From IMG/VR virus record IMGVR_UViG_3300036770_005357: 64,000 bases of DNA, one strand, 5' to 3'. The number at the start of each line of letters is the position of its first letter. Position 1 is the first letter of the stretch. Shown here in pieces: positions 4,222 to 54,734 of this stretch. Position numbers and translations under genes: made by a program. The notes beneath the pieces are model-generated. The model was not told the DNA's origin. It was given only the letters and a program-made list of their open reading frames with translations, and made no database searches. This DNA is from a virus (taxonomy: Duplodnaviria > Caudoviricetes).

Positions 4222-5052
4222 ATGACTATTACAACACAAGGCGGCATCTATAAAATTGTCAACAAACTAAATGGAAAATATTATGTTGGTAGGACCAAAA
4301 ACTTTAAGAAGAGATGGTATGATCACAGGAAACGATTGCGGAAAAACTGTCACATAAACTCACATTTACAACGTGCGTGGAACAAAGATGGAGAACATTC
4401 ATTTGAATTTGTAATTACGGAAATTATTGATGTCACAATTTGTCATAAAGAAACCGAACAAAAGTATATAGATCAACTTATTGAAGATCGCAAAAATGGA
4501 ATCGACAATAGTTATAACATTAGTGAAAGTTCAGATGGACCAACATTATTCGGTAACAAAAATGGAATGTTTGGTAGAAAACACAGCAATGAGTCCAAAA
4601 ATTTAATGTCTAACAATAGACGAGGTAAAAAACATACCGAAGAAACTAAAAAAATGTGGAGTGAACGTCGAAAAGGAAAACCTTCGTGGAACAAGGGGAT
4701 GGAAATGTCAGAAGAATATCGTAAAAAATTATCTATTATCAGAAAAGGCAGAAGACATTCTGTAGAGACTAAAAGGAAAATTTCGTTATCTCAACTTAGA
4801 GAAAAAAATCACCGATTTGGCAAGCGACCAACAGAAAATCAAATAAACAAAATGGTTGATGTTATAGTTGATAAAACTATTTACACTTGGAAAAATGACA
4901 AGTTGTTACGTACAGAAAATATGACCCGAAGAGATTTTTATAAAAAATACAACATACCAGCATCCAACATATGTGATCTTATTAAAGGAAAAAGAAAATC
5001 TGTTTATGGATGGTATATTGAAACTAGTTCGCCCAACGGGGTTCTCGTATAA
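4222..5052 (+). mobile_element. Free-standing GIY-YIG homing endonuclease with NUMOD3-like repeats
   Basis: GIYKIVNKLNGKYYVGRT, R..H, F.F..E, YN motifs; MFGRKHSNESK/KKHTEETK/RHSVETK repeats; AT-rich and antisense to neighbours. Confidence 0.92.
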
Positions 5053-8273: not shown

Positions 8274-8386
8274 ATTTAATTTACTTTTTAAGTCTACCAG
8301 CTTTTTTCTAGAAGTCAATGGGAAAAATATAACAAGTTTTCAGGATCTCACTCACATTCACCATATGGTGATAGCGATATGTTCCC

Positions 8387-8454
8387 TATAAGTCCCTAGG
8401 AATTGAACCTAGTCTCCTGTAATTACCGGCGCATTACCCGAATGCTGAACTTAC
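8387..8454 (-). ncRNA. tRNA-like element with aberrant anticodon arm
   Basis: Acceptor GTAAGTT/GACTTAT, D-like GCA-TTCGGGTAA-TGC, T arm CTAGG-TTCAATT-CCTAG; anticodon arm shortened and mismatched. Confidence 0.55.
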
Positions 8455-8481
8455 GCGTCTATCTGTACCTTGTTATTTATA

Positions 8482-8553
8482 TAGTATACAGAGGATTTGA
8501 ACCTCTCATTCACCACTGGTGATCAGCTCAGTTTAGAATGACCGCCTGTATAT
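8482..8553 (-). ncRNA. Second tRNA-like element with aberrant anticodon arm
   Basis: T arm AGAGG-TTCAAAT-CCTCT, acceptor TATAC/GTATA, TCACC-AGT-GGTGA hairpin in place of an anticodon arm. Confidence 0.5.
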
Positions 8554-8571
8554 ATTATACAAAAAAATCTA

Positions 8572-8729
8572 TGTTTGAGGCAAGAGCATTTCTACATATT
8601 CAGCGGCAGTTTATTAATGGTGTAACATTAACACTTGCATCACAGATATAATTACACTCATATCTGATCTAACGCTAGATAAGTATCTCTCTGTTGCATC
8701 TCAATTACCTTTCGGTAACACCCCAAACA
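8572..8729 (-). ncRNA. Unclassified structured RNA, about 158 nt
   Basis: Closing stem TGTTTGGGG/CCTCAAACA; internal TTACC-GAAA-GGTAA, CAGATAT/ATATCTG and TTAATG/CATTAA hairpins. Confidence 0.5.
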
Positions 8730-8735
8730 AAATTG

Positions 8736-8831
8736 TTTTGGATTCATGCGGTGTATTGGTTATTTTCCGATCCGCAGTGTCCATCCCCTAAACCAATAGG
8801 TGACACCTTTCATTAGCGGTTGAACCCAAAA
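8736..8831 (-). ncRNA. Unclassified structured RNA with kissing loops, 96 nt
   Basis: Closing stem TTTTGGGTTCA/TGAATCCAAAA; hairpins GTGTC/GACAC and TGCGG/CCGCA; loops TTGGTT and AACCAA are complementary. Confidence 0.6.
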
Positions 8832-8852
8832 ATTATTAAAAGAACTAAAATT

Positions 8853-9061
8853 GTTGATATAGAGGGATTGATTACCCTCACGAAGTTTGGTGGTTGCCCT
8901 TGCTAAAGTTTCTTTCAAGTTATTTCCTTGTGTATGTTTGCTTTAACTCTTCTGTATTATTTCAAATACATTCAGATGATTTTTCATTGAGTTTAACCCC
9001 AACAAAGTCAGACTATTGTCATTAGTCCTATCACCTTGCGTCTATTTCCGCCATATATCAA
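8853..9061 (-). ncRNA. tRNA-Leu-like ends enclosing a long insertion
   Basis: 5' TGATATA-TGGCGGAAATAGACGC and 3' GAGGG-TAATCAAT-CCCTC-TATATCA resemble tRNA-Leu halves; about 150 nt lie between them. Confidence 0.55.
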
Positions 9062-9079
9062 AAAGAACAAAAAAATTGG

Positions 9080-9198
9080 TTTGTTAGCTTCGATGACCGC
9101 ATTTAACTGCCTGTATTATACCCCTACTGGGCGATTACCGACAATCGTGTCGGCATCATTCTCCGTCTACTCATATAATACCATCTATAACTAACAAA
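9080..9198 (-). ncRNA. Unclassified structured RNA immediately 3' of tRNA-Asp
   Basis: Closing stem TTTGTTAGT/GCTAACAAA; nested TATTATA/TATAATA, CCGAC-ACGATT-GTCGG and GCA-GTTAAA-TGC. Confidence 0.5.
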
Positions 9199-9200
9199 AG

Positions 9201-9276
9201 TGGCGGTCTATACGAGATTCGCACTCGTTACTGAATCGTGACAGGATTCTATGATAAACTCATTCAACAATAGACC
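9201..9276 (-). tRNA. tRNA-Asp(GTC)
   Basis: GGTCTAT/ATAGACC acceptor, GAATC-CTGTCAC-GATTC anticodon arm, ACGAG-TGCGAAT-CTCGT T arm, G73 and encoded CCA. Confidence 0.9.
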
Positions 9277-9284
9277 AAAATCTT

Positions 9285-9382
9285 AAGATTGACATCCAAG
9301 TATTTATCAGTGAATCGTAACCCACTGCCCTCTATTTCTTGGTTTTCCGGATAACAACCGGATGAACTTAATCGTCAATCTT
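9285..9382 (-). ncRNA. Unclassified structured RNA, 98 nt
   Basis: Closing stem AAGATTGAC/GTCAATCTT; CCGG/CCGG, CCAAG/CTTGG and CAGTG/CACTG stems; promoter-like TTTACA-N16-TAAGAT just upstream. Confidence 0.55.
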
Positions 9383-9438
9383 GAAAATATCTTATCAGAA
9401 CTTTCTGACTTGTAAAGAACTTTTTTTAAAATCTTTGG

Positions 9439-9530
9439 GGTTGAGGGTGACTGCGCCAGTCGGAGCGCTCTCTTTTACAGTTAAGTAAACCGTGCGGACT
9501 GTTCCCCTACACCAAGTCACCACCTCAACC
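9439..9530 (-). ncRNA. Unclassified four-way-junction RNA starting at a promoter TSS
   Basis: Closing stem GGTTGAGG(T)GGTGACT/AGTCACCCTCAACC with three hairpins; CAGTC and GACTG loops complementary; begins 8 nt after the -10 box at 9539-9544. Confidence 0.65.
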
Positions 9531-12768: not shown

Positions 12769-13647
12769 ATGGACAACAATATAAACCAAACTATAATAGA
12801 AAAAGTAGCAATCAAAAGCGTGGCAATATATAAAGCAATAGCTATGTTACCACCACCAGAAATAAAGGACTTATGGGCAGAAAACAATTATACAAAACAG
12901 ACGCAGAACGACTTGAAGCTAGACGCGAAAGACAATTGCGTTACTATGAAAAAAACAAAAACAGAATTAACGCCGGTAGATTGGAAAGATATTACAAATC
13001 AAAACAAGAGCGGGATTTATAAAATAATAAACAAGATTGACGGCAAGTATTATGTAGGTAGAAGTTCCAATATTAAAAAAAGATGGAGATCTCATCGTAA
13101 TCTTTTAAGACAAAACAAACACAGTAATTGTCACCTACAAAGGGCTTGGAATCGTGATGGGGAATCGTCATTTGATTTTATTTTAGTTGAAGAAGTAATA
13201 CCGGATAAAAATATTCTAATAGATGTTGAAACTCGGTACATTAATAAGTTTGTAAATGATAGGAAAAACGGCATTGACGATTGTTACAACTTAAGCTTAA
13301 GTGCGGTTACAGGAAGTGTACCCGGTAATCAACACAGAAAAGGAAAACCTCATTCAATTGAAGATAGATTAAAAATATCTAAGGGACTGTTAGGCAACAC
13401 GAATACTAAAGGTAAATCTATTTCCGAAATACACAGACAAAAAATTATAATGAATGCGCCTAAAGGCAAAAATAATCATGCATTCAATAATAAAATTTAT
13501 AACTTCTTCAACAAAAATACAGGCGAAAGTTTTAGTGGTACACTCAGTGAACTTTTACAAAAAGAAAATATAAAAATAAATTCAGCGTTTCATAGAGTTA
13601 TCCGTGGCGAAAGAAATCATTACAAAGGATGGATATATAAACCCTAG
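12769..13647 (+). mobile_element. GIY-YIG homing endonuclease (probable real start MKKTKTEL near 12946)
   Basis: SGIYKIINKIDGKYYVGRSS; catalytic domain closely resembles the 4222 enzyme. Confidence 0.9.
12873..13025 (+). CDS. Small basic MGRK-type ORF overlapping the GIY-YIG 5' end in another frame
   Basis: Manual translation MGRKQLYKTDAERLEARRERQLRYYEKNKNRINAGRLERYYKSKQERDL*; homolog at 18970. Confidence 0.65.
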
Positions 13648-30400: not shown

Positions 30401-31204
30401 ATGAAGTTAATAGAAATACTCAAGAAACATATATTAAAAGAAGGTATAGATGATCCTTCAATATTAAAGTGTATATTTTTGGCAGGTGGACCTGGCAGCG
30501 GTAAGAGCACTGTAGCTTCTGAATTATTTGATTTACCCAAAGATTTATCTGTAAATAGATTTGGACTTAAAGTGATCAATAGTGATATAGAGTTTGAAAG
30601 AATGTTACATCAAATGGGTATATCTACTGATTTAAGTAAATTAAGTGGAGAAGATTTTAAAAGATTGACAAGCGGAAAAGATTCGGTAAGAGAAAAAGCA
30701 AAGAGAATTGCTAAAAAGAAACTGGAAATGTATAGAAAGAGTAAGTTAGGATTAATCATAGATGGTACAGGTGACAGCATAGAATCTATACAAACGAAGA
30801 AACATATTATGCAACAACATGGTTATGATTGTTATATGATATTTGTTAATACGAGCTTAGAAGTTGCTATGGAAAGAAATAGAAAAAGAGCTCGTAAGAT
30901 ACCCGATGATTTATTGAAACAGATGTGGAATAGTTGTCAAAATAATATTGGCCACTTTCAAAATATATTTGGTAATAATTTTAGAATTGTTGATCGTACA
31001 ACATCTGAACCAATTGACAGAAGTGTCGTAAAGAATACAGTAGAGTTCTTAAAGAGTCCTATAAGAAACCCTATCGGTAAAAAGTGGATACAAAGTTATT
31101 ATGATGATAACAAGAAAGTAAATCAAACTGTATCTGGTGATTTTGAACTTGATGATGCTCCACTATTTGAACCAATACGACCAAGAACATTTAAAGACAA
31201 ATAA
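30401..31204 (+). CDS. P-loop kinase (zeta-toxin/AAA_33-like)
   Basis: FLAGGPGSGKS, IIDGTG, RNRKRARKIP. Confidence 0.75.
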   Translation: MKLIEILKKHILKEGIDDPSILKCIFLAGGPGSGKSTVASELFDLPKDLSVNRFGLKVINSDIEFERMLHQMGISTDLSKLSGEDFKRLTSGKDSVREKAKRIAKKKLEMYRKSKLGLIIDGTGDSIESIQTKKHIMQQHGYDCYMIFVNTSLEVAMERNRKRARKIPDDLLKQMWNSCQNNIGHFQNIFGNNFRIVDRTTSEPIDRSVVKNTVEFLKSPIRNPIGKKWIQSYYDDNKKVNQTVSGDFELDDAPLFEPIRPRTFKDK

Positions 31205-51623: not shown

Positions 51624-52394
51624 ATGAAAATTGATTCCAAAGATAAAAAGATTTTGATATTCTCAGATCCTCATCAAGAAATTGATAAGGTTGATGATAT
51701 CATTAAACATGAAGCTGCTGATATCAACATTTGTTTGGGTGATTGGTTTGATAGTTTTTATAAAGACTATGATAGTGATTATAAAGCAACCGCTGATTAT
51801 CTATTGAAATATCTTGATACTAGAAACTCACATACTTGTTTTGGTAATCACGATGTTCACTACTTGTTCAATAGTGATGTTGCTAAATGTAGTGGTTACG
51901 AAGACCGTAAGTACTTTGCTATAGATGATGTAATTGGTAGATATAGAAAGTCTGTACAAGATTATTTTAAATGGTATTTTGTAATTGACGATTATTTGTG
52001 TACACATGCTGGTATACATCCAAATTACATACCTTCAACTGCAAAAAATAATGATGACATAATCAATTATATAGACAGTGAATGTGAACGGGCTACACTT
52101 GCGGCGAGAACTAATGACTATCATTGGTTTTTTAAGGCTGGTAGAGCAAGAGGCGGATTTGCCAGATATGGTGGTATTGTATGGTTAGACTTTGATAGAG
52201 AGTTTGAACCTATTGAGGATTTAAAACAAATCGTTGGTCATACACACAGAAGAAGTAAAGGTATTGAACAACATCATACAGAAGGATTCAGTGATCTGAC
52301 AGAAGCTAATAACCTGTGTATTGATTGTAATGTAAATCAATGGCTTACAATTACAAACGGTAAGATGGAGATAAAAAGTTATAAAGATTTGTAA
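51624..52394 (+). CDS. Calcineurin-like metallophosphoesterase
   Basis: SDPH, GDWFD, GNHD, THAG, GHTH. Confidence 0.85.
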   Translation: MKIDSKDKKILIFSDPHQEIDKVDDIIKHEAADINICLGDWFDSFYKDYDSDYKATADYLLKYLDTRNSHTCFGNHDVHYLFNSDVAKCSGYEDRKYFAIDDVIGRYRKSVQDYFKWYFVIDDYLCTHAGIHPNYIPSTAKNNDDIINYIDSECERATLAARTNDYHWFFKAGRARGGFARYGGIVWLDFDREFEPIEDLKQIVGHTHRRSKGIEQHHTEGFSDLTEANNLCIDCNVNQWLTITNGKMEIKSYKDL

Positions 52395-53726: not shown

Positions 53727-54734
53727 ATGGATCGTAAGTTAGCCTCTATTCGTAAGATTGAAGAAATCAAGCCTATTCAAGGCGCTGATAAGATTTGTGT
53801 CTATCGTGTAGGCGGATGGTGGGTTGTTGACACTGTAAATAAGTACAACGTTGGCGACTTGGTTGTTTATTATGAGATTGACAGCTTTCTTCCTATTAAG
53901 CCTGAATTTGAGTTTCTTCGTAAGAATAGTTACAAGAAAATGCCTAATGGCGATGATGGATTTAGACTCAAGACTATCAAGTTGCGCGGTCAACTTAGTC
54001 AAGGTCTTCTTACCAAGATTCCAGATACTATTGTAAATCCTAAAGAGGGCGATGATATTACTGAAATACTTGGTATTGTTAAGTATGAACCACCGATTCC
54101 TGCACAACTTGCTGGACTTGTAAAGGGTTTATTTCCGTCATTTATTCCAAAGACCGATGAAATTCGTGTACAGAACTTTGAATCTGATACAGGTTTAAAT
54201 GTTTATGGATCAATAGTTTACATTACTGAAAAACTTGATGGTACAAGTTTTACTTGTTACTTCAATAAAGGTGAATTCGGTGTTTGTAGCCGTAATCTTG
54301 AATTGAAAGAAACCGCTGAAAATACTCATTGGTCTGTTGCCAATAAGATGAAACTTCGTGAGAAGTTGAGTGCTTTGGGTAGAAATATAGCTCTACAAGG
54401 TGAATTATGTGGTACGGGTATTCAAAAGAATATGTATCGTTTCAATGATCAACGGGTGTATTTCTTTACAGCTTATGACATTGATAATGGTAGTAGATTA
54501 CACTTTGAAGAACTTAAAGAACTTATTTCTAATTTAGAACTTGAAATGGTACCTATACTAGATGATTTGTATAGACTTCCTTCTGAAAATCTTGTAGAGA
54601 AGATGCTTGCTTATGCTGATGGCAAGAGTTTCTTTAATAACACTGTTGACCGTGAAGGTGTAGTGATTCGTGGATTGATGGTGGATTTTAGCTTCAAGGC
54701 TATTAGTAACAATTTCTTGTTGAAAAATGACTGA
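53727..54734 (+). CDS. RNA ligase (DRB0094/Rnl2-like family)
   Basis: RKLASI, RLKTIKLRGQLSQGL, IPKTDEIRVQN, TEKLDGTS, QGE, REGVV, FKAISN.FLL. Confidence 0.92.
   Translation: MDRKLASIRKIEEIKPIQGADKICVYRVGGWWVVDTVNKYNVGDLVVYYEIDSFLPIKPEFEFLRKNSYKKMPNGDDGFRLKTIKLRGQLSQGLLTKIPDTIVNPKEGDDITEILGIVKYEPPIPAQLAGLVKGLFPSFIPKTDEIRVQNFESDTGLNVYGSIVYITEKLDGTSFTCYFNKGEFGVCSRNLELKETAENTHWSVANKMKLREKLSALGRNIALQGELCGTGIQKNMYRFNDQRVYFFTAYDIDNGSRLHFEELKELISNLELEMVPILDDLYRLPSENLVEKMLAYADGKSFFNNTVDREGVVIRGLMVDFSFKAISNNFLLKND

What the first reader, a model, noticed from the sequence alone, without database searches (positions are those of the whole stretch)
8853..9061. tRNA-Leu-like termini split by a roughly 150-nt insertion
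The ends match tRNA-Leu halves: TGGCGGAAATAGACGC D region, CGTGAGGG..CCCTCTAT T/acceptor region and a 7-bp acceptor stem. Inside lie an anticodon-like hairpin GACTA-ATGACAA-TAGTC (central GAC) and a long AT-rich insert. It could be an intron-bearing or decayed tRNA, or a tRNA-scaffolded larger RNA. The phage RNA ligase makes splicing conceivable (inference).
Basis: partly seen in the sequence, partly recalled or inferred. Interest (0 to 1): 0.65.

Follow-up and report, generated by a model that had tools for sequence, protein, structure and literature searches.

The report
Unspliced tRNA-framed jumbo phage RNA
This is neither a broken nor an intron-split tRNA but a conserved 207-base RNA of a freshwater jumbo phage that uses a stripped-down leucine-tRNA frame to carry a folded insert of unknown job; it is one of several swappable small RNAs in an array, and one river RNA sample shows it as a closed circle.

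Summary
The tRNA-Leu-like ends and 158-nt insert are real (minus strand, 9061-8854). The intron and decay readings fail. No single deletion of 908 gives a tRNA, because the ends themselves lack G18G19 and the T-loop UUC. RNA contigs from three studies cover the insert with no splice joint. The unit is 98% identical in a phage whose helicase gene is 72% identical. An 87% orthologue and one closer variant give 9 compensatory pairs, all in the insert. The same elbow-less frame carries unrelated inserts (56-192 nt where measured) in 13 families from viral and metagenome contigs (23/55 motif sites; null 0.1%). All keep U48, G53:C61 and U54. It is one swappable module of an array of stem-closed RNAs; a complete 296-kb T4-like relative lacks it and has three ordinary tRNA-Leu genes. 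Best reading: an unspliced, non-decoding scaffolded RNA whose insert binds a protein (function inferred, untested). No Rfam match or paper found; closest are T4 RNA C/D. This scan noted the same class earlier on other DNA (e1-4035489).

The parts
8854..9061 (-). U4: the tRNA-framed non-coding RNA (207-208 nt)
   Evidence: covered end to end by RNA contigs
9054..9061 (-). 5' strand of the terminal (acceptor-like) stem, 8 bp with 8861-8854; A3:U70, no G3:U70
9038..9053 (-). U8-G9 and Leu-type D arm, 3-bp stem, loop lacking G18G19; A14 and A15 kept
8974..9036 (-). 5' insert domain: anticodon-stem equivalent (9036-9030/8980-8974) closing a three-way junction with hairpins 9028-9010 and 9006-8983; stems covary, loop sequences kept
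8953..8970 (-). hairpin at the start of the variable region, two compensatory pairs counted
8882..8952 (-). 3' insert domain: long interrupted stem with A-rich internal loop, nearly invariant in sequence; one compensatory pair in the tip hairpin 8930-8916
8862..8880 (-). U48 and T arm: 5-bp stem, 8-nt loop keeping U54 and A58 but not U55/C56
9062..9079 (-). U-rich spacer with a boxA-like heptamer at 9068-9062; the circular junction of run X15 starts at 9065
   Evidence: boxA identity is from my own knowledge
9389..9416 (-). sigma-70-like promoter with extended -10, nearest upstream of U1-U8 (others at 9566-9539 and 9755-9728)
   Evidence: consensus match only; motif recurs in relatives
9290..9381 (-). 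array unit U1, stem-closed RNA with T-arm-like hairpin
9201..9276 (-). tRNA-Asp(GUC), itself a swappable unit of the array
9080..9197 (-). array unit U3, stem-closed RNA ending in ACCA
8738..8829 (-). array unit U5
8572..8730 (-). array unit U6; also shows an end-to-start junction in run X15
8484..8560 (-). array unit U7 with canonical T arm
8331..8477 (-). array unit U8: inner tRNA-like domain without a normal anticodon arm, mounted on an outer stem
9436..9530 (-). array unit U0 behind its own promoter-like site
53727..54734 (+). ATP-dependent RNA ligase (PF09414 + PF21189); candidate for end sealing, link to U4 untested
   Evidence: homologue in complete relative G001

Best explanation
U4 is a functional, unspliced, non-decoding RNA built on a chassis derived from tRNA-Leu. 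Shown: frame, insert fold, conservation, modular exchange, presence of the full-length sequence in RNA libraries. Inferred: it is co-transcribed with its neighbours from sigma-70-type promoters, released by cuts in the U-rich spacers, and protected by the 8-10 bp terminal stem. The core that stacks D and T arms is kept (U8, A14, A15:U48, G53:C61, U54:A58) while the elbow (G18, G19, U55, C56) and CCA end are lost, which should keep it away from synthetases and the ribosome. The 158-nt insert is the working part. Most likely (about 40%) it is a protein-binding decoy or aptamer that serves host takeover or counter-defence as an accessory gene. A fraction may be sealed into circles, possibly by the phage RNA ligase (about 30%).
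For: U4 98% versus helicase gene 71.6% (L061) and 86.6% versus 71.9% (L064). 98.8% of cells paired, 9 two-sided changes, all in the insert; slid controls 34-47% paired, 0-2 such pairs. Same frame around unrelated inserts in 13 families, 12/39 viral and 11/16 metagenome motif sites, null 0.1%; U48, G53:C61 and U54 present in all 23 though not demanded by that scan; no framed T loop begins with UUC, whereas two GG-containing D arms in the same loci have UUCG loops. Full-length cover with no internal skip in X15, X17, X20. Units swap between close phages; complete relative G001 lacks U4 and has three normal Leu tRNAs. Loops stay fixed while stems covary, as expected for binding surfaces; no antisense match of 13 nt or more in the window.
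Against: No partner protein or target was identified; the decoy role rests on analogy. Eight of nine compensatory pairs come from one orthologue (L064), and three lie in a helix with a register shift. High identity could reflect recent module exchange rather than selection. The D-arm sequence was the search key, so its conservation is circular. RNA evidence is from assembled contigs: no strand, ends or level, and rare spliced forms would be dropped.
Confidence: 0.62

Rival explanations
1. Intron-containing tRNA-Leu or tRNA-Val gene that is cut and re-joined by the phage RNA ligase.
For: Leu-type D arm, A73, A15:U48; a 7-nt loop with U33, GAC and A37; RNA ligase in the window; a relative does carry tRNA-Asn and tRNA-Lys genes with 51- and 35-nt anticodon-loop inserts.
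Against: 0/908 single deletions pass ARAGORN at 100% or 95%; 0/540 double deletions pass at 100%, but 372 pass once canonical D and T loops are put in, so the exons themselves are the block. No skip joint in three RNA studies. 158 nt is too short for a group I core, and the P7-like pentamers are replaced in L064. In L064 the GAC loop has 8 nt.
Confidence: 0.04
2. Decaying tRNA pseudogene with a random AT-rich insertion.
For: Loss of D-loop GG, T-loop UUC and CCA.
Against: More conserved than a linked protein gene; compensatory changes inside the insert; the same losses recur in 13 families with intact stems.
Confidence: 0.04
3. Base-pairing regulatory RNA: the tRNA-like frame stabilises single-stranded seeds that pair with host mRNAs or RNAs, as proposed for tRNA-Other of Bacillus cereus (PMC3399842).
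For: The A-rich unpaired stretches of 8952-8882 are nearly invariant.
Against: No complement of 13 nt or more in the phage window and no Rfam match on either strand. Host genome unknown, so host targets were not tested.
Confidence: 0.13
4. Y-RNA-like partner of a Ro60 ring protein, in the orientation of Deinococcus Yrn1 (long terminal stem, then D, central arm, T).
For: Terminal stems of the class run 7-13 bp; Yrn1 has this order of arms (PMC4201824).
Against: No TROVE or vWA_Ro60 match in the complete relative, controls positive; no YrlA Rfam hit; terminal stems share no sequence across families; U4 stem is a plain AU-rich helix. G001 lacks U4 itself, and a host Ro60 cannot be excluded.
Confidence: 0.07
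5. Miniature tmRNA: tRNA-like ends plus a short tag frame in the 3' insert domain.
For: GAC at positions 19-21 as in tmRNA; three substitutions in one frame are synonymous.
Against: No G3:U70, no T-loop UUC, no CCA; ARAGORN finds no tmRNA at 85%; every frame is broken or loses its stop in at least one orthologue; two of the synonymous changes are one compensatory pair.
Confidence: 0.04
6. Selfish or neutral RNA cassette that spreads by recombination between shared spacers and does nothing for the phage.
For: Units swap freely between near-identical spacers; U4 is absent from a complete relative.
Against: Compensatory changes and fixed loops imply selection on the RNA; no mobility gene in the array.
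Confidence: 0.06

Closest known systems
Phage T4 species 1 and 2 RNAs (rnaC, rnaD)
   Same: Stable non-coding RNAs of 120-140 nt inside a phage tRNA cluster, function unknown (PMC9697503); rnaC ends in a T arm and short terminal stem.
   Different: rnaC keeps a canonical T loop and has no Leu-type D arm; no sequence similarity to U4; U4 is longer and sits in a swappable array of eight such units.
tRNA-Leu (class II tRNA, RF00005)
   Same: D-arm sequence, U8, A14, A15:U48, A73, 5-bp T stem, U54, A58.
   Different: No G18G19, no U55/C56, no CCA, no anticodon loop in place, 158-nt insert; not detected by ARAGORN or Rfam.
Bacterial Y RNAs YrlA and Yrn1 (PMC4201824)
   Same: Larger RNA carrying D- and T-like arms with tRNA tertiary contacts including the 15:48 pair.
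   Different: YrlA has a permuted order and a closed acceptor stem and lies beside Ro60; none found here.
Allo-tRNAs and polycistrons of irregular tRNAs (PMC5389517)
   Same: Polycistronic irregular tRNA-like RNAs seen in metatranscriptomes, some not used in translation.
   Different: Those have 8/4 or 9/3 branches, Sec-like D arms and anticodons; U4 has a 5-bp T stem, a Leu D arm and a multi-helix insert.
tRNA-Other of Bacillus cereus (PMC3399842)
   Same: A tRNA-like element recruited into a larger non-translating RNA.
   Different: Chromosomal island flank, extensions outside the tRNA body; here the cargo is inside the frame and phage-borne.
DucS circular RNA of Bacillus altitudinis (PMC10504365)
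   Same: About 200-nt bacterial non-coding RNA seen through permuted junction reads.
   Different: Host-encoded, no tRNA frame, validated by RNase R; the U4 circle is unvalidated.

Membership tests
tRNA-Leu / canonical tRNA | G18G19 in D loop and UUC in a 7-nt T loop | tested here: not met
tRNA-Leu / canonical tRNA | U8, A14, A15:U48, A73, G53:C61, U54:A58 | tested here: met
tRNA-Leu / canonical tRNA | 7-nt anticodon loop on the anticodon stem | tested here: not met
   stem closes a three-way junction
tRNA-Leu / canonical tRNA | aminoacylation | not testable with these tools
   predicted absent
Intron-containing tRNA | removal of one segment restores a tRNA | tested here: not met
   0/908 at 100% and 95% threshold; positive control found
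Intron-containing tRNA | spliced product in RNA | tested here: inconclusive
   no skip joint in three RNA studies, but contigs drop rare forms
Group I intron | catalytic core P3-P8, Rfam match | tested here: not met
   no Rfam hit to E 5; P7-like pentamers are 7 nt apart and replaced in L064
tmRNA | G3:U70 alanine acceptor with CCA | tested here: not met
   A3:U70, 3' end A-CAA
tmRNA | conserved tag frame ending in a stop | tested here: not met
Y RNA (YrlA/Yrn1) | Ro60 gene nearby or in the genome | tested here: inconclusive
   none in complete relative G001, which lacks U4; own genome not held; host unknown
Y RNA (YrlA/Yrn1) | YrlA topology or Rfam match | tested here: not met
T4 RNA C/D type | stable non-decoding RNA with terminal stem in a phage tRNA transcription unit | tested here: met
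   (stability itself not measured)
T4 RNA C/D type | sequence homology to rnaC or rnaD | tested here: not met
   no phage-collection match to U4; direct reading
Allo-tRNA | 8/4 or 9/3 acceptor branch, Sec-like D arm | tested here: not met
   5-bp T stem, 3-bp D stem
Bacterial circular RNA | permuted junction plus RNase R resistance | tested here: inconclusive
   junction 9065 to 8850 in one contig of X15; X20 fits by length only; RNase R not testable

The most novel reading that the evidence does not exclude
Jumbo phages run a cassette library of elbow-less tRNA chassis loaded with interchangeable folded cargos, cut from one transcript and sealed into covalent circles by their own RNA ligase, giving nuclease-resistant RNA decoys against host defence or translation factors.
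Probability: 0.18. Interest if true: 0.85.

Novelty: new variant of a known kind. Interest (0 to 1): 0.56.

Why it matters
tRNA finders and Rfam miss these genes, so phage non-coding gene counts are too low. The class gives natural variation for an old open question, the role of T4-type tRNA-framed RNAs, and suggests a rule: keep the core, drop the elbow, swap the cargo. If the cargos bind host proteins they are a new layer of RNA-based accessory genes. If the circles are real, phage RNA ligases have a role beyond tRNA repair.

Tried and rejected
Rfam on the region to E 5 and on 11 class loci: only tRNA matches, none on U4. BLAST of the array against 50,697 phage records: only tRNA-Asp; one class member also without real match. 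Low-threshold ARAGORN on the window: noise. Loci reached through the downstream protein did not contain the array. An 18-nt scan for the 3' domain gave chance hits only, so no orthologue below 86% was found. A two-part D-plus-T pattern in cellular genomes gave nothing; of 79 plain motif sites there, 2 were framed and both lacked U48 and G53. ORF 8918-8760 overlapping the 3' half: stop in L064 and in RNA run X20, different tail in L001, rejected. Group I P7 look-alike, CsrA-like GGA site (paired in a covarying stem) and antisense seeds in the window: rejected. DUF2828 search rang nowhere including controls, uninformative. Zero RNA cover on flanking ORFs is not used as evidence because relatives differ there. 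Contig depths are not used to rank expression. The 87-nt and 287-nt skips in RNA contigs match relatives lacking tRNA-Asp or U5/U6, not splicing. Seven paper searches found no description of this frame; the library lacks most subscription papers. Host not identified.

Full report
Observation. The feature lies on the minus strand, 9061-8854. An 8-bp terminal stem encloses a Leu-type D arm (9053-9038), a 158-nt insert (9037-8880) and a T arm (8879-8862). The unconstrained fold recovers these helices, z = -3.3. ARAGORN and Rfam do not call it. The ends are not intact tRNA halves: G18G19, U55/C56 and CCA are missing.

Setting. The best DNA holder is a subsurface metagenome that may be the source; other holders are freshwater. 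Relatives that share array units include a complete 296-kb IMG/VR phage with a T4-type capsid gene (G001). U4 is one of eight stem-closed units plus tRNA-Asp between 8330 and 9530, separated by short U-rich spacers and preceded by sigma-70-like sites. Units are exchanged between close phages: L001 keeps U3, U4, U7, U8 but replaces U5/U6 and lacks tRNA-Asp; L016 and L018 carry other units in the U4 slot; L064 and L076 have further combinations. G001 has no U4-type D arm and encodes about 31 ordinary tRNAs elsewhere, including three for leucine. U4 is therefore accessory and not needed for decoding.

Intron test. None of 908 single internal deletions passes ARAGORN at 100% or 95% threshold, while T4 tRNA-Leu carrying the same insert is detected with its intron. 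None of 540 double deletions passes at 100%, but 372 do when canonical D and T loops are put in. The block is in the would-be exons. RNA contigs from three studies cover 8850-9064 continuously with one or two differences and no internal skip. Contigs drop rare forms, so this is presence of the unspliced form, not proof that no spliced form exists.

Decay test. Eight orthologous loci were found: 100%, 98-99% (six) and 86.6%. In the same genome pairs the helicase gene is 71.6% and 71.9% identical. On four distinct sequences 98.8% of cells pair and nine pairs change on both sides, all in the insert; slid controls give 34-47% and 0-2. Eight of the nine come from L064, so this is essentially one deep comparison. 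Stems change while the loops of both 5' hairpins and the A-rich internal loop of the 3' domain stay fixed.

The class. The 16-nt GG-less D arm, searched alone, is followed by a T arm and a closing acceptor stem at 12 of 39 viral and 11 of 16 metagenome sites, against 0.1% in shuffles and 2 of 79 in cellular genomes, both atypical. These fall into 13 families; the inserts compared (56-192 nt) share no similarity. All 23 have U48, G53:C61 and U54 although the scan did not ask for them, and the 14 sequences have A third from the end of the T loop (A58). None of the framed T loops begins with UUC (one unframed candidate, L043, does), whereas two GG-containing D arms in the same loci have UUCG loops. 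Loss of the D and T halves of the elbow thus goes together. Terminal stems run 7-13 bp with no NCCA. A boxA-like heptamer lies upstream in 5 of 13 families against 3% of background windows (post hoc), and at 9068 for U4.

Circles. Run X15 has one contig (depth 25.7, neighbour 29) joining 9065 directly to 8850 with 1 nt of overlap, which closes a 216-nt loop with a 5-nt leader and 4-nt trailer; U6 shows a similar joint. In X20 a 134-nt contig has exactly the length such a junction would need (30 + 104), but the joint is not listed and a linear neighbour is possible. No DNA orthologue has a tandem copy. X17 shows U4 in a linear contig with U7 and U8. The window encodes an ATP-dependent RNA ligase, with a homologue in G001. 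Reverse-transcriptase switching between stem-held ends, or a host ligase, would give the same picture. I put real in vivo circles at about 30%.

Mechanism. Shown: frame, fold, conservation, modularity, full-length sequence in RNA libraries. From established tRNA biology (own knowledge): the elbow and CCA end are read by RNase P, LeuRS, T-boxes and the ribosome, so their loss should keep the RNA out of translation while the core still folds. Inferred: release by cuts in the spacers, protection by the terminal stem, and a cargo that binds a protein. I favour a decoy or aptamer role in takeover or counter-defence (about 40%) because loops are fixed, stems covary, units swap like accessory genes, and no antisense target or coding frame was found. 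Phage tRNAs are known to cancel tRNA-targeting defence (10.1101/2023.03.15.532788), but that is by replacement, which U4 cannot do.

Comparison. It works like T4 RNA C and D, stable RNAs of unknown function in a tRNA cluster (PMC9697503), but is not homologous. It fails membership in tRNA, tmRNA, group I intron, allo-tRNA (PMC5389517) and YrlA (PMC4201824); no Ro60 was found in G001. I found no Rfam family or paper for the frame.

Verdict. Real, conserved, unspliced tRNA-Leu-framed RNA; new variant of a known kind; function open. Interest 0.56.

Noticed in passing
L165:9097-9222 (-) and L166:4033-4144 (+) (G001): tRNA-Asn and tRNA-Lys genes with intact D and T loops and CCA but 51- and 35-nt folded inserts in the anticodon loop; better intron candidates than U4.
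   Followed up: no
window 8331-8477 (-): U8 holds an inner tRNA-like domain with compensated acceptor, D and T arms but no normal anticodon arm, on an outer stem; Yrn1-like topology; high contig depth in two RNA runs.
   Followed up: partly
window 8572-8733 (-): U6 shows an end-to-start joint in RNA run X15 (one contig, depth 4.2).
   Followed up: partly
window 9198-9364 (-): U1 and U3 are joined directly in RNA contigs of all four studies, as in relatives lacking tRNA-Asp; the array is not always cut into single units.
   Followed up: partly
L024:605-739 (+): 135-nt tRNA-Leu-like gene with a long insert but canonical D-loop GG and UUCG T loop, next to an elbow-less member; possible intermediate.
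   Followed up: no
L001:1647-1782 (+), L018:2817-2952 (+): Another array unit with a compensated 7-bp acceptor stem, encoded CCA and 8-nt T-like loop.
   Followed up: no
window 9068, 8845, 9420 (-): boxA-like heptamer in array spacers, suggesting rRNA-style antitermination.
   Followed up: partly
window 49636-51093 (-): Intact ammonium transporter gene (PF00909) in a phage contig.
   Followed up: no
window 4222-5052 and 12769-13647 (+): Two GIY-YIG-type endonuclease genes against the local gene direction (Pfam checked for the second only).
   Followed up: no
window 30401-31204 and 51564-52394 (+): P-loop kinase (AAA_33/Zeta) and calcineurin-like phosphoesterase; possible end-healing partners of the RNA ligase.
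   Followed up: no
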